From Caulobacterales bacterium (GTDB taxonomy: Bacteria > Pseudomonadota > Alphaproteobacteria > Caulobacterales > Aquidulcibacteraceae), in the NCBI GenBank assembly GCA_044226655.1, contig JBGAGO010000004.1:16644-80643 (forward strand): 64,000 bases of DNA. The letters are read 5' to 3'. Below, piece by piece: positions 23,244 through 45,244 of the stretch. The first letter of the stretch is position 1; every line of letters starts with the position of its first letter. The notes under the pieces are model-generated. The model saw nothing but the letters and a program-made list of their open reading frames with translations, had not been told where the DNA came from and made no database searches. The position numbers were made by a program, and so were the translations under genes.

Positions 23244-24211
23244 GGCGTCACGACGACCTTGCCGATCACGCGGCGCGTTTCCAGCATGGCCAACGCCTCG
23301 CGCGTCTTCTCCAACGGAAATTCGGCATGCACGTGCGGGCGCAGCTTGCCCTCGGCCGCGAGTGTGCGCACAGCGGCCATGTTCTCGCGCCCGCGCTCGG
23401 GAAAGCGGCGGCCATATTCGCCCGCGCGCACGCCCATCACCGAGAAGCCTTTGATCAGCGGCATGTTCACGCTGATGCTCGGGATGCGCCCGCTGGTGAA
23501 GCCGATGATGAGCAGCCGCCCATCGAAGGCGATGCAACGCACGCTTTCATCGAACACGTCGCCGCCGACCGGATCGAAGATCACATCCGCGCCGCGCCCT
23601 TCGGTGAAATCCTTCACCGCTTCGCGAAAGCCGGAAGACGGCAGCACGTGATCGGCGCCATAGTCCTTGAGGAAGGCGCGCTTTTCTTCGCTGGAGGCCG
23701 TCGCGATCACCTGCGCGCCCATCTGCTTGCCGAGATCGACGGCGGCGATGCCGGTGCCGCCGGCCGCGCCGTGCACCAGCAGCGTCTCGCCCTTCAGCAG
23801 ATTGGCGCGGCGCACCAGCGCGACATAGGCGGTGAGATAGATCGTCGGGTAGGAAGCGGCCTGCGCGTAGCTCATCGGCGCGGGCTTGGCCGAGAGCGCG
23901 AGCGCGTTGGCCACGGCGTATTCCGCGAACCCGCCGGTGCGCGAGCCGCCGACCACGGCATCGCCCAGCTTCCAATTGGTCACGCCTTCGCCCAGCGCGG
24001 CGATATCGCCCGAAAGGTCCATGCCCGGCGTGAACGGCAGCGGCGGCTTGTGCTGATATTTGCCCTGCCCCATCAGCACGTCGGGAAAGTTCACGCTCGA
24101 CGCGCGCACGCGGATCAGCACCTCGCCGGCCCCCGGCGCGGGCGTGGGAACCTCCTTGACGGATGCGCCCGACAAATCCTCCGTGATCTCGGAGACGACG
24201 AACGCTTTCAT
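23240..24211 (-). CDS. NADPH:quinone oxidoreductase (zinc-type ADH/MDR superfamily)
   Basis: MKAFVV...GEVLIRVRASSVNFPDVL and GAAGGTGIAAVDLGK Rossmann motif. The start overlaps the upstream esterase stop (ATGA). Confidence 0.85.
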   Translation of the reverse strand: MKAFVVSEITEDLSGASVKEVPTPAPGAGEVLIRVRASSVNFPDVLMGQGKYQHKPPLPFTPGMDLSGDIAALGEGVTNWKLGDAVVGGSRTGGFAEYAVANALALSAKPAPMSYAQAASYPTIYLTAYVALVRRANLLKGETLLVHGAAGGTGIAAVDLGKQMGAQVIATASSEEKRAFLKDYGADHVLPSSGFREAVKDFTEGRGADVIFDPVGGDVFDESVRCIAFDGRLLIIGFTSGRIPSISVNMPLIKGFSVMGVRAGEYGRRFPERGRENMAAVRTLAAEGKLRPHVHAEFPLEKTREALAMLETRRVIGKVVVTP

Positions 24212-25182
24212 CAGCGCGCCTCCCGCAGCGCGCGGTTCGTCTCCTCGGCGATCTTGCGGCAGGCGGCGTCGGCGGCCGGCACGGCGCCCATGAACGCGGT
24301 GAAGGCGTGCGCGAGCGCGTCGAAACATTCATACGTCACCGCCACGCCTGCGCCGCGGAGGCGTTCGGCGTAAGCGATTCCCTCGTCGAGCAGCGGATCG
24401 AAGCCTGCCGCATAGATCAGCGCGCGCGGCAGCCCGCTCACATCCTTGGCGGCGAGCGGCGACAGGCGCGGATCGTTCTTCGCGTCATCGCCAGGGTTGA
24501 GATAATTGGCCATGAAGAAGGCCATGGTCGCGGCCGAGAGCGGAAACGCTTCGGCGTAGGTGCTCATCGACGGATAAGTGCTGGCGATATCGAGCGCGGG
24601 ATAGATGAGCAGCTGCAGCACCGGCGCGGGCCCGCCTGTGCGCTTCATCTCCTGCGCCACGATCGCCGAGAAATTTCCGCCCATGCTGTCGCCGCCGACC
24701 GCGGCCTTGTTCGCCGCCGCGCCGAATCTGGCCGCGTTCGCGGCGCCCCAGGTGAAGGCGTCGATCGCGTCATCGAGGCCAGCGGGAAAACGATGCTCCG
24801 GCGCCAGGCGATATTCGATGCTAAGCACCGCGGTTTCGCAAATCTTCGCCAACAGCGTGCAGAACACATGGCAGGTCTCGATCGAGCCGATGACGCCGCC
24901 GCCGAAATGGTAGAACACCAAGAGCGGCTGGGCGGGATCCTGCTTCTCCGGCTTGTAGAGGCGCGCGGGAATGGCGCGGCCCGCGGCAGGGATCGTGACG
25001 CTTTCCCAGGCGACGCCCGGCTCGGGCTGGCCGCTCAGCATCGCCATCGCGCCAGATTGCGCACGGATCGCTTCGACGCTGGGCGCCGTCGGAGGCGCGG
25101 CGGCCGCAGCCGCGCGCGCCGCCTCCATCAGAGCCTGAAACGCGGGATCGAGCGTGCGACCGCCCATCGTGAACGCCGTCAC
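24211..25182 (-). CDS. alpha/beta hydrolase, hormone-sensitive-lipase-like esterase
   Basis: Oxyanion motif (HFGGGVIGS) and nucleophile elbow (GDSMGG). Confidence 0.85.
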   Translation of the reverse strand: MTAFTMGGRTLDPAFQALMEAARAAAAAAPPTAPSVEAIRAQSGAMAMLSGQPEPGVAWESVTIPAAGRAIPARLYKPEKQDPAQPLLVFYHFGGGVIGSIETCHVFCTLLAKICETAVLSIEYRLAPEHRFPAGLDDAIDAFTWGAANAARFGAAANKAAVGGDSMGGNFSAIVAQEMKRTGGPAPVLQLLIYPALDIASTYPSMSTYAEAFPLSAATMAFFMANYLNPGDDAKNDPRLSPLAAKDVSGLPRALIYAAGFDPLLDEGIAYAERLRGAGVAVTYECFDALAHAFTAFMGAVPAADAACRKIAEETNRALREAR

Positions 25183-27866: not shown

Positions 27867-27915
27867 CCGCCGGCTTCCAGCCGGCATATCGGGCCTGCCG
27901 GCTGGAAGCCGGCGG
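27867..27915. repeat. REP-like hairpin ccgccggcttccagccggca-N9-tgccggctggaagccggcgg (copy 1)
   Basis: A 20-bp perfect stem in the divergent thiolase / enoyl-CoA hydratase intergenic region. A second copy lies at 42756-42810. Confidence 0.75.
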
Positions 27916-42239: not shown

Positions 42240-42316
42240 TGGCGCGCCCGAAGAGATTCGAACTCCTGACCCTCAGATTCGTAGTCTGATGCTCTATCCA
42301 GCTGAGCTACGGGCGC
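42240..42316 (-). tRNA. tRNA-Arg (anticodon ACG)
   Basis: The minus strand reads GCGCCCGTAGCTCAGCTGGATAGAGCATCAGACTACGAATCTGAGGGTCAGGAGTTCGAATCTCTTCGGGCGCGCCA. It folds into a 77-nt cloverleaf with a 7-bp acceptor stem, anticodon loop CUACGAA and an encoded CCA. Confidence 0.92.
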
Positions 42317-42507
42317 GCGAGGAGCGGTCCTATAGCGGGGGGCGGCTGGCGGTTCAAGCGTGAGGGCTCCACCGGCCCGATCCGCGCCGGTTTCGGCCCC
42401 GTGACCCCAACGCGTGACCTTCGTCACAGCGGCCCGGCCGGGCCGGCTCTAGGGTCTGATCATCGCAACGACGCGATGAGCCAACACCGAGCCAAACGGA
42501 GCCAGAG

Positions 42508-42612
42508 ATGACGACCTTCAAGACCCGCCTGATGAGCCTGATGATCGCCGCGGTGATCGCGGTCCCGGTGCTGCTGACGGTGTCGCACCAAGCCGCCCAA
42601 ATCGTCGCCTGA
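42508..42612 (+). CDS. 34-codon mini-ORF A (MTTFKTRLMSLMIAAVIAVPVLLTVSHQAAQIVA)
   Basis: GGAG sits 6 nt before the ATG. 32 of 34 third positions are G/C. It is a paralogue of the adjacent mini-ORF, with synonymous-only differences in the shared tail. Confidence 0.55.
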   Translation: MTTFKTRLMSLMIAAVIAVPVLLTVSHQAAQIVA

Positions 42613-42646
42613 TCCGTTCGAACCCAGATTTCAGAGAGCCAATCCA

Positions 42647-42736
42647 ATGACCAAATTCTTCTCCTTCGCCGCCGCCCTCCTCGTCGCCGTGATGGCCGCC
42701 CCGGTGCTGCATCAAGCCGCGCAGATCGTCGCGTAA
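42647..42736 (+). CDS. 29-codon mini-ORF B (MTKFFSFAAALLVAVMAAPVLHQAAQIVA)
   Basis: GAGAG sits 8 nt before the ATG. 26 of 29 third positions are G/C. It is a paralogue of mini-ORF A. Confidence 0.55.
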   Translation: MTKFFSFAAALLVAVMAAPVLHQAAQIVA

Positions 42737-42755
42737 GGGCAGCAGCTAGAATTCT

Positions 42756-42810
42756 GTACCGCCGGCTTCCAGCCGGCAGGTCGTCTCTGCCGGCTGGAAG
42801 CCGGTGGTAC
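42756..42810. repeat. REP-like hairpin gtaccgccggcttccagccggcag-N7-ctgccggctggaagccggtggtac (copy 2)
   Basis: It has the same core as 27867-27915. Confidence 0.75.
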
Positions 42811-42821
42811 GAAGAAGGAAA

Positions 42822-42855
42822 GGGCGCGGGGATTTGGCTCTCCCCGTGCCCTTTT
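42822..42855. terminator. bidirectional intrinsic terminator between the mini-ORFs and lon
   Basis: On the plus strand, an 11-bp stem (GGGCGCGGGGA / TCCCCGTGCCC) is followed by TTTT. The reverse complement sits 10 nt after the lon stop. Confidence 0.65.
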
Positions 42856-42865
42856 CTGTGCGCGC

Positions 42866-45244
42866 TCAGCACGCGCGCGCTGTCTTGCTGGGCGCTTCGA
42901 TGGGATCGAGGGCTTCGCGGACGGCGTCTTCGACGCGTTCGATCCAGATGATCGCAAGCCTTTCGCGCGCATCGGCGGGGATGTCGTCGTAGTCGCGCTT
43001 GTTGCGCGCGGGCAGCAGCACGCGCGTAAGGCCCGCGCGCGCGGCGGCGGCGACTTTCTCCTTGATGCCGCCGACAGGCAGGACGAGGCCGCGCAGGCTG
43101 ATCTCGCCCGTCATCGCGGTGTCGCTGCGGATGGTGCGCCCCGTCAGCAGTGAAGCGAGCGCCATATACATGGCCACGCCCGCGCTCGGCCCGTCCTTCG
43201 GCGTGGCGCCCGCCGGCACGTGGATGTGAATGTCGTTCTTCTCGAACAGCGACTGCTCGAACCCGAGCGCGGCGGCCGAGCCTTTGACCAGGCTGAACGC
43301 GGCCTGCGCGCTCTCGCGCATCACATCGCCCAATTGCCCCGTCAGCGTGAGGCCGCCGCGGCCGGGCGTAAGCGCTGCTTCGATGAAAAGGATATCGCCG
43401 CCGACCGGCGTCCAGGCGAGCCCGGTGGCCACGCCCGGCACGCTGGTGCGCATCGCCACCTCGTTCTCGAAACGCGGCTGGCCCAGAGCCTCGGCGAGAT
43501 CGCCCACGCGGATGCGCCGCCGCGTCGCGGGCTTCTCTGCGACCGCCACGGCGACATGGCGCAGAACCTTGCCGATCTCGCGCTCCAGATTGCGGACGCC
43601 GGATTCGCGCGTGTAGCCGTTGATGATGACGCGCAGCGCGTCGTCTTCGATCTCCGCCTGATCGGGCGAAAGCCCATTGGCCTGCAATTGGCGGCGCACC
43701 AGATAGCGGCGCGCGATCTGGAATTTTTCTTCCTCGGTGTAGCCGGAGAGCGAGATGATCTCCATCCGGTCGCGCAAGGGGCCTGAGACCGAATCCAGCA
43801 TGTTCGCCGTGGCGATGAACACCACCGCCGAAAGATCGAACGGCACGGCGAGATAATTGTCGCGGAAGGCGACGTTCTGTTCCGGGTCGAGCACCTCCAG
43901 CATCGCCGCGGAGGGATCGCCCTGCACGCCCGCGCCCATCTTGTCGATCTCATCGAGCATCATCACGCAATCGCGCGCGCCGGTTTTGCGCAGGGCTTGA
44001 ATGATGTTGCCGGGCAGCGCGCCGACATAGGTGCGGCGATGGCCGCGGATCTCGGCTTCGTCATGCACGCCGCCGAGGCTGACGCGCGTGAATTTACGGC
44101 CCATGGCGCGCGCGATGGATTGGCCGAGCGAAGTTTTGCCGACGCCCGGCGGCCCCGCGAAGCACAGGATCGGCGCCTTGCCGCCCGGCGCCAGCTTGCG
44201 CACGGCGAGATATTCGATGATGCGCTCTTTGATCTTTTCGAGCCCGTAGTGATCTTCATCGAGGATCGCGCGCGCCGCCGCGATGTCGATCGGCGCGCTT
44301 TCCGGCAGCGCCCAGGGCAGCTCGATCAGCCAATCCAGATAGGTGCGGATCATGCCGTATTCGCCGGAGGCTTCGGGCAAGCGTTCGAGCCTTCGCGCCT
44401 CGTTGCGCGCGGCCTGTTCGGCCTCCGCGGGCATCTTCGCCTTCGTGATCGCTTCGTTGAGCGACGCGATCTCCGCGCTGCGGGTATCGCCTTCGCCCAG
44501 CTCGCGCTGGATCGCCGCCATCTGTTCGCGCAGCAGCACCTCGCGCTGGCGTTCGTCGAGCGCCGCCCTGGTCTGCAGGCCGATCTCGCGCGACAGGCGC
44601 AGCACCTCGGCGCGATGCGCGAGCAGCGCGTTCACGGCCTCCATGCGCGCGTTGATGTCGAGCGTTTCGAGCAGACGCTGCTTCTCGTCGGGCGTGGCGT
44701 CGATCAAAGCGCCGACCAGATCAGCCAGCGCGGACGGCGAATTGGCCTGCGCGACCTCGGCCTGCAATTCCGGCGGCGCGTTCGGCAGCAATTGCACGAC
44801 CTCGGTCGCGAGCGCCTTCAGATTGAGGAAGCGGGCTTCGATTTCGGGCGTCTTGGCGTCCGATTCGGTGAGCATGTCCGCCTTGCAGGCGATGTAGGGC
44901 GCCTCTTGCACGAACTCGCGCGCGCGAAAGCGCTGTTCGCCCTGGCAGATGAGATGATGTTCGCCATCCGGCCCCGCCACGTAGCGCAGGATCGTCGCGA
45001 CGACGCCGATCGTGTTGAGATCGCCGGGCAGCGGATCGGCGATATCGGGATCGCGCTGCAGCAGAAGGCCGATCGGGCGGCCCTCGCGCACGGCCTGCTG
45101 CGCGGCGGCCACCGAACGCGCGCGCCCGATGGTCAGCGGCATCACGGCGCCGGGAAACAGCACGAAACCGCGCACCGGCACGATCAGCAAATGATCGGCG
45201 GGCGCGGGCGTTTCTTTCGGGGTTGCTTGAATGCTCTCAGACAT
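42866..45244 (-). CDS. lon: ATP-dependent Lon protease (divergent paralogue)
   Basis: LON N-domain ([19 protein letters not shown]), Walker A (GPPGVGKTS) and protease motif ([11 protein letters not shown]). 792 aa. Confidence 0.92.

What the first reader, a model, noticed from the sequence alone, without database searches (positions are those of the whole stretch)
42508..42736. Two tandem paralogous mini-ORFs with a conserved PVL..HQAAQIVA tail beside tRNA-Arg
The ~550-bp gap between tRNA-Arg and lon holds two same-strand mini-ORFs. Both are below the ORF-track cut-off:
- MTTFKTRLMSLMIAAVIAVPVLLTVSHQAAQIVA (34 codons)
- MTKFFSFAAALLVAVMAAPVLHQAAQIVA (29 codons)

Evidence that they are translated:
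- Each has an SD-like purine block 6-8 nt upstream.
- G/C third-position bias is extreme (32/34 and 26/29).
- A REP hairpin and a good terminator follow the pair.
- Over the last 8 codons the copies differ at 4 nucleotides (CAC/CAT, GCC/GCG, CAA/CAG, GCC/GCG). All four are synonymous, which is a direct signature of selection on the peptide.

Each peptide is essentially a charged N-tip, one hydrophobic helix and a short polar tail. That would fit several roles:
- Small single-pass membrane regulators.
- Tandemly duplicated type-I-toxin-like peptides.
- Precursors of a tiny exported peptide.

I know of no described family with this tail.
Basis: seen in the sequence. Interest (0 to 1): 0.65.

Follow-up and report, generated by a model that had tools for sequence, protein, structure and literature searches.

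The report
Undescribed family of paired 30-residue pre-peptides
The two mini-ORFs are real, conserved genes of a widespread but undescribed alphaproteobacterial family of about 30-residue peptides that look like a secretion signal followed by an almost invariant tail ending QAAQIVA, and that carry their own promoter with a CRP-type regulator site.

Summary

The ORFs belong to a real family. It has 244 clusters at 50% identity, nearly all 29-35 aa, all unnamed. It has no Pfam, NCBIfam, PDB, Rfam or literature match.

The consensus is MTKFYALIAACAVFAPxAxATL(N/H)QAAQIVA-stop. This reads as a positive N-tip, a 12-residue hydrophobic core, then Pro and Ala-x-Ala, as at a signal peptidase I site. 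About 10 residues follow, ending in a near-invariant QAAQIVA at the free C-terminus.

Most loci hold two or three copies. In 16 of the 27 the copies are 24-43 nt apart.

The unit is self-contained. A GTGA-N6-TCAC palindrome lies exactly 29.5 nt from a TAnnnT -10 box in 17 of 18 loci, which places it at -41.5, the CRP class II geometry. A 5' hairpin, two Shine-Dalgarno sites with their ORFs, and a terminator follow. A CRP-family regulator gene sits directly upstream in one clade.

The roughly 465-bp cassette recurs at 92-96% identity in unrelated flanks.

The most likely mechanism is insertion with the N-terminus inside, so that the tail is exposed or released in the periplasm. Its function is unknown.

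The parts
42400..42864 (+). Self-contained cassette running from regulator site to terminator. It is shared with relatives whose flanks are unrelated.
   Evidence: blastn and alignment: window 42400-42864 matches L081-L084 at 92-93% identity, with no similarity outside this span. L121 and L122 show the same behaviour: 414 nt shared at 96% and different flanks.
42414..42427 (+). Palindrome GTGACCTTCGTCAC (GTGA-N6-TCAC), a putative binding site for a CRP-family activator, centred at -41.5.
   Evidence: The motif is present upstream of the first gene in 17 of 19 distinct loci examined. Its centre lies exactly 29.5 nt from a TAnnnT hexamer in 17 of 18 cases. The window holds 3 such sites against 0.29 expected. 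The CRP logo is two inverted TGTGA elements 6 bp apart (PMC12360894).
42401..42405 (+). Extra upstream GTGAC half-site, seen in this lineage only.
   Evidence: Read directly from the sequence. It is conserved in L082 and L084 but not in L081. Its significance is unknown.
42450..42455 (+). -10-like hexamer TAGGGT (TAnnnT).
   Evidence: The position is fixed relative to the palindrome across loci, as TACCTT, TAGGGT, TAGGTT, TATCTT, TACCCT or TAGCTT. No good -35 element lies 17 nt upstream, as expected for an activator-dependent promoter. This is inferred, not mapped.
42462..42477 (+). Predicted transcription start (42462) and 5'-terminal hairpin AUCGC-AACGAC-GCGAU.
   Evidence: +1 is inferred as the 7th nt after the -10 hexamer. 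A stem-loop starts within about 2 nt of the predicted +1 in 11 of the 13 loci folded. In 8 of these it is stable (-8.5 to -13.3 kcal/mol, z about -2 to -3). In the window lineage it is only 5 bp (-5.6 kcal/mol, z -0.8). The stem sequences differ between loci.
42498..42501 (+). Shine-Dalgarno-like GGAG for ORF1, 6 nt before the ATG.
   Evidence: Other loci have AGGAG or GAGGAG at 7-9 nt.
42508..42612 (+). ORF1, 34 aa, the longer-N-terminus type: MTTFKTR / LMSLMIAAVIAV / PVLLTVS / HQAAQIVA.
   Evidence: Profile E = 4e-15 in the local hmmsearch. The identical peptide is in the public protein collection as P0003.
42633..42638 (+). Purine block AGAGAG for ORF2, 8 nt before the ATG.
42647..42736 (+). 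ORF2, 29 aa, the short 'MTKF' type: MTK / FFSFAAALLVAVMAA / PVL / HQAAQIVA.
   Evidence: Profile E = 9e-13. Relatives have a 30-aa version that differs by an in-frame 3-nt indel. The identical peptide is in the public collection as P0005.
42756..42810 (.). REP-like hairpin with 24-nt arms. It is lineage-specific and not part of the family's core unit.
   Evidence: A second copy lies at 27867-27915. It is present in L081 and L083 but absent from the cassettes of other clades.
42816..42862 (.). Intrinsic terminator: stem GGGCGCGGGGA/TCCCCGTGCCC followed by TTTTCT. An A-rich left flank means it can also terminate the convergent lon gene.
   Evidence: Of the 14 cassettes whose downstream sequence was read, 13 end in a GC hairpin, in most cases followed by a T run. 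L113 shows none.

Best explanation
**What it is.** The two ORFs are a bicistronic pair of genuine small-protein genes of an undescribed alphaproteobacterial family.

**Transcription.** A CRP-family activator binds the GTGA-N6-TCAC palindrome centred at -41.5 and recruits RNA polymerase to a promoter with a weak -35 and a TAnnnT -10 box. The roughly 400-nt mRNA starts with a protective 5' hairpin and ends at an intrinsic terminator.

**Export.** Each product is a pre-peptide. The N-terminal Lys/Arg stays in the cytoplasm. The hydrophobic core of about 12 residues inserts through Sec or YidC. The C-terminal part crosses to the periplasm.

**Processing.** In the family consensus, signal peptidase I would cut after Ala-x-Ala, with Pro at -5. 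This would free a peptide of about 10 residues, (T/A)-L-(N/H)-Q-A-A-Q-I-V-A. The window copies have shifted candidate sites: AVIA|VP or TVS|HQ in ORF1, and VMA|AP in ORF2.

**Function.** The invariant tail with its free carboxyl end is the working part. It most likely acts as a ligand for a periplasmic or membrane partner.

**Shown.**
- The genes are conserved and under purifying selection.
- The family-wide sequence pattern.
- The promoter geometry.
- The cassette structure.
- Linkage to a CRP-family gene in one clade.

**Inferred.**
- Translation, topology and cleavage.
- The identity of the regulator.
- Any partner.

The confidence of 0.4 applies to the full chain including cleavage. The core claim is a real coding family, with an N-in/C-out tail and CRP-type control. 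I put that at about 0.75.
For: **Family.**
- The profile search found 247 proteins with E <= 1.
- The representative search found 244 clusters at 50% identity with E <= 1e-3. Nearly all are 29-35 aa and the match ends at the C-terminus.
- The metagenome DNA scan gave 16 loci whose tail is preceded by a hydrophobic mini-ORF. Every one has the Ile form of the tail.

**Residue table on 223 distinct sequences.** Positions count back from the first Q of the tail.
- K/R at -21 in 97%.
- Hydrophobic from -20 to -9.
- P at -8 in 96%.
- A at -6 in 90%.
- Variable and bulky at -5.
- A at -4 in 78%, otherwise V, S or T.
- T, A or V at -3.
- Then L-x-QAAQIVA-stop.
- Conservation alternates from -8 to 0 (the strongest periodicity is 180 degrees). 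This fits an extended c-region with -3/-1 small residues.
- The only charged residues are N-terminal, which predicts N-in by the positive-inside rule.

**Selection.** The tail is constant at the amino-acid level while its third codon positions vary. Coding indels are in frame and non-coding indels are not.

**Promoter.**
- The palindrome lies 29.5 nt from the TAnnnT hexamer in 17 of 18 loci.
- A CRP-family gene (cNMP_binding + HTH_Crp_2) ends about 90 nt upstream of the peptide gene in L133-L135, and in a further contig of that clade for which no DNA was returned. In L136 the upstream gene is cut off by the contig end and carries no annotation.
- Its recognition helix is SREKVNR. It carries the R-E-x3-R residues that contact GTGA in E. 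coli CRP; that comparison is from memory.
- A similar gene lies two genes upstream in L115.

**Transcript ends.** A terminator follows 13 of the 14 cassettes whose downstream sequence was read; L113 shows none. Folding the window transcript gives z = -4.4, with the 5' hairpin and both 3' hairpins present.
Against: - No expression, translation or processing data exist for any member.
- A mature part of only about 10 residues has no described precedent among Sec substrates of Gram-negative bacteria.
- Several hydrophobic-core positions are more conserved than is usual for signal peptides. A/S at -14 is effectively invariant (222 of 223 sequences, the other a gap), L at -17 is 77% and F at -10 is 70%. 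This suggests a helix-packing face, and so an uncleaved membrane peptide.
- About 12% of members have V, P, M or L at the putative -1 position.
- The window's own copies lack Ala-x-Ala in the canonical register. ORF1 has L-L-T there. ORF2 has lost that segment by a 4-5-residue deletion. Cleavage in the window therefore depends on alternative sites.
- SignalP could not be run.
- The regulator assignment rests on motif resemblance, spacing and gene linkage in one clade only.
- No CRP-like gene lies in the window.
- One subfamily (L107, L129) lacks the palindrome.
Confidence: 0.4

Rival explanations
1. The peptides are uncleaved single-pass membrane micro-proteins. The whole peptide of about 30 residues stays in the inner membrane as one kinked helix. 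It uses a conserved helical face and its tail to bind and modulate a membrane partner such as a sensor kinase, transporter or protease. This is how MgrB, AcrZ or MgtR work in enterobacteria. The two paralogues might act as a heterodimer.
For: - The hydrophobic run from -20 to -2 is 19 residues, long enough to span a bilayer.
- Conserved positions at -21, -17, -14, -10, -6, -2, +2 and +6 are spaced by 3-4 residues, which places them on one helical face.
- The window lineage lost the canonical Ala-x-Ala register, yet both genes stay under purifying selection.
- Copies within one locus share lineage-specific features. Examples are LQA in all three L107 copies, AQAxRIVA in two L108 copies, and PVL..H in both window copies. 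This is compatible with co-evolution for a shared partner or with each other.
- Two clades have a two-component system next to the peptides.
Against: - The strongest conservation signal near the tail alternates with period i, i+2, and includes a nearly invariant Pro. This fits a signal-peptidase c-region better than a helix face.
- The two neighbouring two-component systems are not orthologous. The kinases share 27-30% identity. Most loci have none.
- No partner gene is conserved beside the family.
Confidence: 0.35
2. The peptides are type-I-toxin-like and sit in repeated cassettes. Each cassette would encode small hydrophobic, membrane-damaging peptides whose synthesis is held down by an unrecognised antisense or trans RNA. 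This would resemble the Ldr/Rdl long direct repeats or the Ibs/Sib repeats of E. coli.
For: - The peptides are small and hydrophobic.
- They occur as tandem copies.
- The 410-465-bp unit, with its own promoter and terminator, is found at 92-96% identity in unrelated genomic contexts.
- No conserved neighbouring genes exist.
Against: - No antisense RNA gene, and no Rfam family, was found on either strand.
- The 5' UTR is short, 21-46 nt, and lacks the long SD-sequestering leader typical of type I toxin mRNAs.
- The promoter looks activator-dependent.
- The peptides lack the charged or aromatic C-terminus common in such toxins. They have a textbook n-h-c signal-peptide layout instead.
- An invariant heptapeptide kept across 244 clusters is unlike the narrow, fast-evolving type I toxin families.
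- One locus type is stably syntenic across a broad clade: ABC2-ECH-(M1 peptidase)-pair-HDAC-like-xseB.
Confidence: 0.1
3. The peptides are cis-acting regulatory peptides: a translation-arrest or leader peptide whose N-terminal export signal and conserved C-terminal motif control expression of a downstream gene, as SecM, VemP or MifM do.
For: The architecture is an N-terminal signal-like segment plus a conserved C-terminal motif read at the peptide level.
Against: - A terminator follows the last ORF in 13 of the 14 cassettes whose downstream sequence was read; L113 shows none.
- The next gene is convergent in at least five contexts: lon in the window, parB in L122, an aminotransferase in L093 and L113, a histidine kinase in L120, L137 and L143, and a 508-aa gene in L129.
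- No Sec or YidC component is nearby.
Confidence: 0.04
4. The region is non-coding, or its real gene is the 172-aa antisense ORF (42354-42872, minus strand). On this view the mini-ORFs are chance frames in GC-rich DNA.
For: - Long spurious ORFs are common in DNA of 65-70% GC.
- A 172-aa ORF does span the region on the minus strand.
Against: - Indels of 8, 1, 4 and 4 nt among close relatives break the antisense frame, while both mini-ORFs stay intact.
- Hundreds of diverged homologues keep the mini-ORF length, start, stop and tail.
- No Rfam family matches.
Confidence: 0.02

Closest known systems
Phr/RRNPP-type signalling pro-peptides of Bacillus and relatives (PhrA, PapR, NprX)
   Same: Both are small ORFs with a Sec-type signal peptide in which the conserved, presumably active part is the extreme C-terminus. 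Both are often present in several paralogous copies. In one clade the peptide gene sits beside a cytoplasmic transcription factor gene.
   Different: The host is Gram-negative Alphaproteobacteria. No TPR-type RRNPP receptor lies next to the genes; where a neighbouring regulator exists it is CRP-family. There is no pro-region: everything after the putative cleavage site is about 10 residues. Export, processing and re-import are untested. There is no sequence similarity.
Enterobacterial small membrane regulators (MgrB, AcrZ, MgtR, MgtS, PmrR)
   Same: Both are 30-50-residue peptides with a single hydrophobic segment and a predicted N-in orientation. Both are stand-alone transcription units under a specific regulator.
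   Different: There is no sequence similarity. Those proteins have no signal-peptidase motif and no invariant free C-terminal heptapeptide. They are single-copy and are not arranged as ordered pairs.
Type I toxin repeats of E. coli (Ldr/Rdl long direct repeats, Ibs/Sib, ZorO/OrzO)
   Same: Both are hydrophobic peptides of 19-35 residues encoded in repeated units of a few hundred bp. Both are sometimes tandem and are scattered in intergenic regions.
   Different: No antisense RNA was found. The leader is short. The promoter looks activator-dependent. The layout resembles a signal peptide. Sequence conservation is very broad.
Secretion-monitoring arrest peptides (SecM, VemP, MifM)
   Same: Both have an N-terminal export or insertion signal and a C-terminal motif conserved at the peptide level.
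   Different: This family is much shorter. It ends at a stop codon directly after the motif. It has no downstream regulated gene, and a terminator follows.
Class II CRP-dependent promoters (E. coli galP1, the synthetic CC(-41.5) promoter; GlxR and Rv3676 sites in high-GC bacteria)
   Same: Both have an inverted repeat GTGA-N6-TCAC centred 41.5 bp upstream of the inferred start, overlapping a poor -35 region.
   Different: The regulator has not been identified for the window organism. The half-site is cGTGaC rather than TGTGA. The effector is unknown. The start site is inferred from the -10 position only.

Membership tests
Sec-type signal peptide cleaved by signal peptidase I | Positively charged n-region | tested here: met
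   K/R at position -21 in 97% of 223 sequences. In the window, K5 and R7 in ORF1 and K3 in ORF2.
Sec-type signal peptide cleaved by signal peptidase I | Hydrophobic h-region of about 7-15 residues, followed by a helix breaker at -4 to -6 | tested here: met
   Twelve hydrophobic residues from -20 to -9, then Pro in 96%. This Pro is position -5 of the putative cleavage site.
Sec-type signal peptide cleaved by signal peptidase I | Small uncharged residues at -3 and -1 (Ala-x-Ala) | tested here: inconclusive
   Met in the family consensus: A in 90% at -3 and A in 78% at -1 of the putative site, with a bulky variable residue between. Not met in the canonical register in the two window peptides. These only offer shifted candidates: V-I-A|V-P or T-V-S|H in ORF1, and V-M-A|A-P in ORF2.
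Sec-type signal peptide cleaved by signal peptidase I | Actual export and cleavage | not testable with these tools
   This needs PhoA fusions, mass spectrometry or LepB inhibition. SignalP was not available.
Type I toxin-antitoxin system | Small hydrophobic membrane peptide | tested here: met
   The peptides are 29-34 aa, with one hydrophobic segment.
Type I toxin-antitoxin system | Antisense or adjacent small RNA that represses the toxin mRNA | tested here: inconclusive
   No Rfam match on either strand. No promoter-like site on either strand in the simple scan. An unrecognised RNA cannot be excluded without RNA-seq.
Type I toxin-antitoxin system | Long structured 5' leader that blocks translation until processed | tested here: not met
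   The inferred 5' UTR is 21-46 nt. It consists of one 5'-terminal hairpin and then the Shine-Dalgarno site.
RRNPP/Phr-type peptide signalling | Cognate TPR-domain receptor (Rap, NprR, PlcR or PrgX) encoded next to the peptide gene | tested here: not met
   Neighbours vary. The precomputed Pfam annotations of 11 locus types show no TPR receptor.
RRNPP/Phr-type peptide signalling | Signal peptide with the active peptide at the C-terminal end of the precursor | tested here: inconclusive
   The layout fits. No activity is known.
Secretion-monitoring arrest peptides (SecM, VemP, MifM) | Downstream co-transcribed gene whose translation is controlled (secA, secDF or yidC) | tested here: not met
   A terminator follows the last ORF. 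The neighbours are convergent in at least five contexts.
Class II CRP/FNR-family activated promoter | Inverted repeat of the CRP type (TGTGA-N6-TCACA) | tested here: met
   nGTG-N8-CACn lies upstream of the first gene in 17 of 19 distinct loci. The consensus is cGTGaC-N4-GTCACa. The CRP logo is taken from PMC12360894.
Class II CRP/FNR-family activated promoter | Site centred near -41.5 relative to the transcription start | tested here: inconclusive
   The centre is 29.5 nt from the first T of a TAnnnT hexamer in 17 of 18 loci. This gives -41.5 if that hexamer spans -12 to -7. The start site is inferred, not mapped.
Class II CRP/FNR-family activated promoter | A CRP-family regulator that binds the site | not testable with these tools
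   There is linkage only. A cNMP_binding + HTH_Crp_2 gene lies directly upstream in L133-L135 (and in one further contig without DNA) and nearby in L115. None lies in the window.

The most novel reading that the evidence does not exclude
Alphaproteobacteria make a Sec-exported, signal-peptidase-released peptide of about 10 residues, (T/A)L(N/H)QAAQIVA. It would act as a diffusible periplasmic or extracellular signal or ligand, for example as a peptide pheromone or as a C-terminal ligand of a PDZ-type protease or a sensor kinase. It would be produced from multi-copy cassettes switched on by a cyclic-nucleotide-type (CRP-family) regulator. This would be a ribosomal peptide signalling system of a kind so far described only in Gram-positive bacteria.
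Probability: 0.15. Interest if true: 0.9.

Novelty: new variant of a known kind. Interest (0 to 1): 0.68.

Why it matters
- Genes this small are routinely missed by annotation. Most members found here are unnamed or were called with wrong starts.
- This family is large: 244 clusters at 50% identity.
- It is under unusually strict selection on a 7-residue free C-terminus.
- It comes with a readable regulatory logic, a conserved CRP-type class II promoter. It is therefore an experimentally tractable entry point into small-protein biology of soil and wastewater Alphaproteobacteria.
- If the tail is released, it would be the shortest known Sec-dependent product in Gram-negative bacteria and a candidate peptide signal.
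- If the tail stays anchored, it is a new class of membrane micro-regulator.
- Either way, the promoter motif defines a regulon for an uncharacterised CRP-family regulator.
- The cassette behaviour, the same 410-465 bp in unrelated contexts, raises the question of how such units spread.

Tried and rejected
1. **Single-peptide protein search.** I worked around this by concatenating the two peptides, and later by using a doubled-peptide alignment.
2. **Synteny through Lon.**
   - All 80 loci with a 68-76% identical Lon lack the ORFs, so the position beside lon and tRNA-Arg is not conserved.
I therefore could not establish the taxonomic range or the copy number per genome.
3. **Viral contigs.** No relatives were found.
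4. **Plasmids.** tblastn with the consensus peptide found nothing.
5. **Annotation libraries.** Pfam, NCBIfam, a PDB profile search and Rfam (at three loci) all returned nothing.
6. **Full-text searches.** Searches for 'QAAQIVA' and for the palindrome together with 'alphaproteobacteria' found nothing. A general small-protein search gave no relevant paper.
7. **Two-component systems as partner.** They lie next to the peptides in two clades but are not orthologous. I rejected them as a conserved partner.
8. **CRP-like gene in the window.** None was found.
9. **The 172-aa antisense ORF.** I rejected it because of frame-breaking indels in relatives.
10. **Structure prediction.** I did not run it. 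A 30-residue hydrophobic peptide would be modelled as a helix under every hypothesis and cannot be searched meaningfully.

The metagenome pattern scan required the tail by design. The synonymous-only variation at those 16 loci is therefore partly circular. The independent evidence is the second and third copies found by profile, the protein-database hits, and the comparison within the window.
Full report
**1.

- The window carries ORF1 (42508-42612, 34 aa) and ORF2 (42647-42736, 29 aa) on the + strand. They lie between tRNA-Arg(ACG) (42240-42316, -) and a convergent Lon-like gene (42866-45244, -).
- Third-position G/C is 32/34 and 26/29. The position 1/2/3 GC profile matches that of the neighbouring genes.
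- The last eight codons differ at four sites, all synonymous.
- GGAG lies 6 nt before ATG1 and AGAGAG lies 8 nt before ATG2.
- Downstream there is a hairpin with 24-nt arms (42756-42810). It is a repeated, REP-like element, with a second copy at 27867-27915.
- After it comes a GC hairpin with a T run (42816-42862). Its A-rich left flank means it can also serve the convergent lon gene.
- No Rfam family matches the region apart from the tRNA.

**2. The ORFs belong to a real, large and unannotated family**

- Near-identical copies exist in public data (P0001-P0005).
- I scanned metagenome contigs for CAYCARGCNGCNCARNTNGTNGCNTRR.
  - This gave 31 loci.
  - In 16 of them the tail closes a mini-ORF of about 30 codons with a hydrophobic body and an MTK-type start. 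All 16 have exactly HQAAQIVA-stop.
  - The Leu, Val, Met and Phe variants of the pattern were unrelated frames.
- A profile built from these peptides found further copies beside them with variant tails, such as NQAAQIVA, TQAAQIVA, LQASQIVA, AQAARIVA and NQAALIVA.
- A profile search of 5.8 billion proteins gave 247 hits with E <= 1.
- An index-free search of 1.84 billion representatives gave 244 clusters at 50% identity with E <= 1e-3. Nearly all are 29-35 aa, and the match runs to the last residue. Longer entries are over-called starts.
- None has a name or a Pfam domain.
- Pfam, NCBIfam, a PDB profile search, plasmids, viral contigs and full-text searches returned nothing.

**3. Anatomy of the peptide**

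The table below comes from 223 distinct sequences. Positions are counted from the first Gln of the tail.

| Position | Residue |
|---|---|
| -23, -22 | Met, Thr |
| -21 | Lys/Arg (97%) |
| -20 to -9 | hydrophobic; Leu -17, Ala/Ser -14 (222 of 223) and Phe -10 stand out |
| -8 | Pro (96%) |
| -6 | Ala (90%) |
| -5 | variable, bulky |
| -4 | Ala (78%; otherwise Val, Ser or Thr) |
| -3 | Thr, Ala or Val |
| -2 | Leu |
| -1 | Asn, His, Ala or Ser |
| 0 to +6 | Q-A-A-Q-I-V-A, then stop |

- This is the n-h-c layout of a Sec signal peptide. The helix breaker sits at -5 and Ala-x-Ala at -3/-1 of a putative cut after position -4. A cut there would leave about 10 residues.
- From -8 to 0, conservation alternates with period two, the strongest signal in a periodicity scan. 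This suits an extended c-region.
- The only charges are N-terminal, so the positive-inside rule predicts N-in/C-out.
- Two caveats apply.
  - Some core positions are more conserved than signal peptides usually are, and they line up on one helical face.
  - The window's copies have lost the canonical register. ORF1 has L-L-T there and ORF2 has a 4-5-residue deletion. They offer only shifted candidate sites: V-I-A|V-P or T-V-S|H in ORF1, and V-M-A|A-P in ORF2.

**4. Evidence for coding**

- Among the window and four close relatives (L081-L084), ORF1 shows 4 synonymous sites and 2 changed codons, both near the N-terminus.
- ORF2 shows about 6 synonymous sites, 3 changed codons and one in-frame 3-nt indel.
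- The non-coding parts of the same cassette carry indels of 8, 6, 1, 4 and 4 nt. These indels also destroy the 172-aa antisense ORF (42354-42872).
- Across 27 loci with the exact tail there are 17 nucleotide versions of its 21 nt.
- That last figure is partly circular, because the scan required the tail. The profile-found copies and the database hits are not circular.

**5. Gene arrangement**

- Of 27 distinct locus versions, 17 hold two copies, 3 appear as triples (one of them, L129, is really a pair) and 7 hold one. Some of the single copies are cut off by contig ends.
- In 16 of the two-copy loci the copies lie 24-43 nt apart, stop-to-stop 117-139 nt.
- The first gene usually has a longer N-terminus and a '..YSL..LLLAP' body. 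The second is usually 'MTKFYALIAAC.VFAP'. The window follows this order.
- Copies within a locus share lineage-specific features.

**6. The transcription unit**

- Upstream of the first gene, 17 of 19 distinct loci carry cGTGaC-N4-GTCACa, which is GTGA-N6-TCAC.
- Its centre lies exactly 29.5 nt from the first T of a TAnnnT hexamer in 17 of 18 loci. If that hexamer is the -10 box, the palindrome is centred at -41.5.
- This is the geometry of class II CRP-dependent promoters. The CRP logo is two inverted TGTGA elements 6 bp apart (PMC12360894). The -41.5 rule is established knowledge.
- In the window the palindrome is 42414-42427, the hexamer TAGGGT is 42450-42455, and the predicted start is 42462.
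- In 11 of the 13 loci folded, the predicted transcript begins with a stem-loop. In 8 of these it is stable (z about -2 to -3). In the window lineage it is only 5 bp (z -0.8). The stem sequences differ between loci.
- Of the 14 cassettes whose downstream sequence was read, 13 end in a GC hairpin, mostly followed by a T run. L113 shows none.
- In one clade (L133-L135, and one further contig returned without DNA) a gene with cNMP_binding and HTH_Crp_2 domains ends about 90 nt before the peptide gene. The palindrome lies in between.
- Its recognition helix reads SREKVNR, with the Arg-Glu-x3-Arg pattern that contacts GTGA in E. coli CRP (comparison from memory). A similar gene lies two genes upstream in L115.
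- The window has no such gene.
- One subfamily (L107, L129) lacks the palindrome.

**7. Genomic context**

- The neighbours are not conserved across the family.
  - Window: lon and tRNA-Arg.
  - L093, L113: an aminotransferase.
  - L122: parB.
  - L107, L129: PBP1C.
  - L111: a kinase and response regulator.
  - L133: a CRP-family gene, DUF8200 and an AI-2E transporter.
- One locus type is stably syntenic in a broad clade: ABC2-ECH-(M1 peptidase)-pair-(inserted PepSY two-component system)-HDAC-like-xseB.
- The two neighbouring two-component systems are not orthologous.
- The cassette behaves as a unit.
  - Window 42400-42864 matches L081-L084 at 92-93% identity with unrelated flanks.
  - L121 and L122 share only 414 nt at 96%.
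- Whether these are several copies in one genome or one copy at different places in related genomes could not be settled.

**8. Interpretation**

- The best-supported reading is a CRP-type-activated bicistronic operon. It encodes two pre-peptides that insert N-in/C-out and expose, or after cleavage release, an invariant tail whose free C-terminus is the functional element.
- I put about 0.75 on that core and 0.4 on the full chain including cleavage.
- The main rival (0.35) is an uncleaved membrane micro-protein with a conserved helical face.
- A type-I-toxin-like cassette (0.1) fits the repeated-cassette behaviour. It does not fit the short leader, the activator-type promoter, the signal-peptide layout or the breadth of conservation.
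- A cis-acting arrest or leader peptide (0.04) is contradicted by terminators and convergent neighbours.
- A non-coding reading (0.02) is contradicted by the comparative data.

**9. Novelty**

- No described family, structure, RNA family or paper matches.
- The kind of object is known: a small signal-peptide-bearing or membrane peptide.
- This architecture has no described counterpart that I could find. It combines a roughly 20-residue signal-like part, an invariant tail of about 10 residues ending at the C-terminus, ordered pairs, a class II CRP-type promoter and a movable cassette.
- The function remains unknown.

Noticed in passing
window 27867-27915: A second copy of the REP-like palindrome (CCGCCGGCTTCCAGCCGGCAG and its complement) that follows ORF2. 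It is a dispersed repeat of this genome and not part of the peptide family's core unit.
   Followed up: partly
window 25169-25182 and 23604-23617: Two further GTGA-N6-TCAC sites; the window holds 3 against 0.29 expected. The one at 25169 (CGTGAACGCCGTCACATCG) resembles the family consensus. It overlaps the 5' end of a minus-strand ORF (24211-25182). No TAnnnT hexamer lies 29.5 nt downstream on the + strand. I did not examine whether it is a regulator site.
   Followed up: no
window 42354-42872 (-): A 172-aa Arg-rich ORF lies antisense to the whole cassette. It is broken by 8-, 1- and 4-nt indels in relatives, so it is a spurious GC-rich frame.
   Followed up: yes
window 42431-42444: A perfect 14-nt palindrome, GGCCCGGCCGGGCC, lies in the spacer between the regulator site and the -10 box. 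It is found only in the window lineage (L081-L084) and its meaning is unknown.
   Followed up: no
L121 5882-6287 versus L122 5882-6295: The same 414-nt cassette (promoter, two ORFs and terminator, 96% identical) sits between an M1 peptidase and an HDAC-like gene in one contig. In another contig it sits between a dicarboxylate symporter and parB. Both versions occur in samples of the same bioreactor-sludge project, which suggests two copies in one organism.
   Followed up: partly
L133 815-4032 (also L134, L135): A cluster of a CRP-family regulator, a single peptide gene, DUF8200, a 146-aa protein and an AI-2E-family transporter. In another contig of the same clade the transporter directly follows the peptide gene.
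   Followed up: partly
L137 5196-8014, L143 5197-7992, L120 881-3173: A PepSY, response regulator and PhoQ-like HAMP kinase module is inserted, in convergent orientation, between the peptide pair and the HDAC-like gene. It occupies the otherwise syntenic locus seen in L121 and L140.
   Followed up: partly
P0006, P0130, P0171, P0218 (protein database): These are read-through or fusion variants. P0006 joins two copies through a Trp codon in place of the stop. The others carry 20-70 extra C-terminal residues. They are either sequencing errors or decaying copies.
   Followed up: no
L129 6001-6150 (P0089): The called 49-aa protein begins with MTKTFALALFA, which looks like the remnant of a decayed upstream family copy fused in frame to an intact one. 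One source labels it, wrongly, as an MnhG antiporter subunit.
   Followed up: no
window 42866-45244 (-) and L001-L080: The best Lon match among 185,579 reference species is only 76% identical (a Hyphomonadaceae MAG). The next matches, at 70-72%, are Xanthobacteraceae and Bradyrhizobium. The window organism therefore has no close relative in that collection.
   Followed up: no
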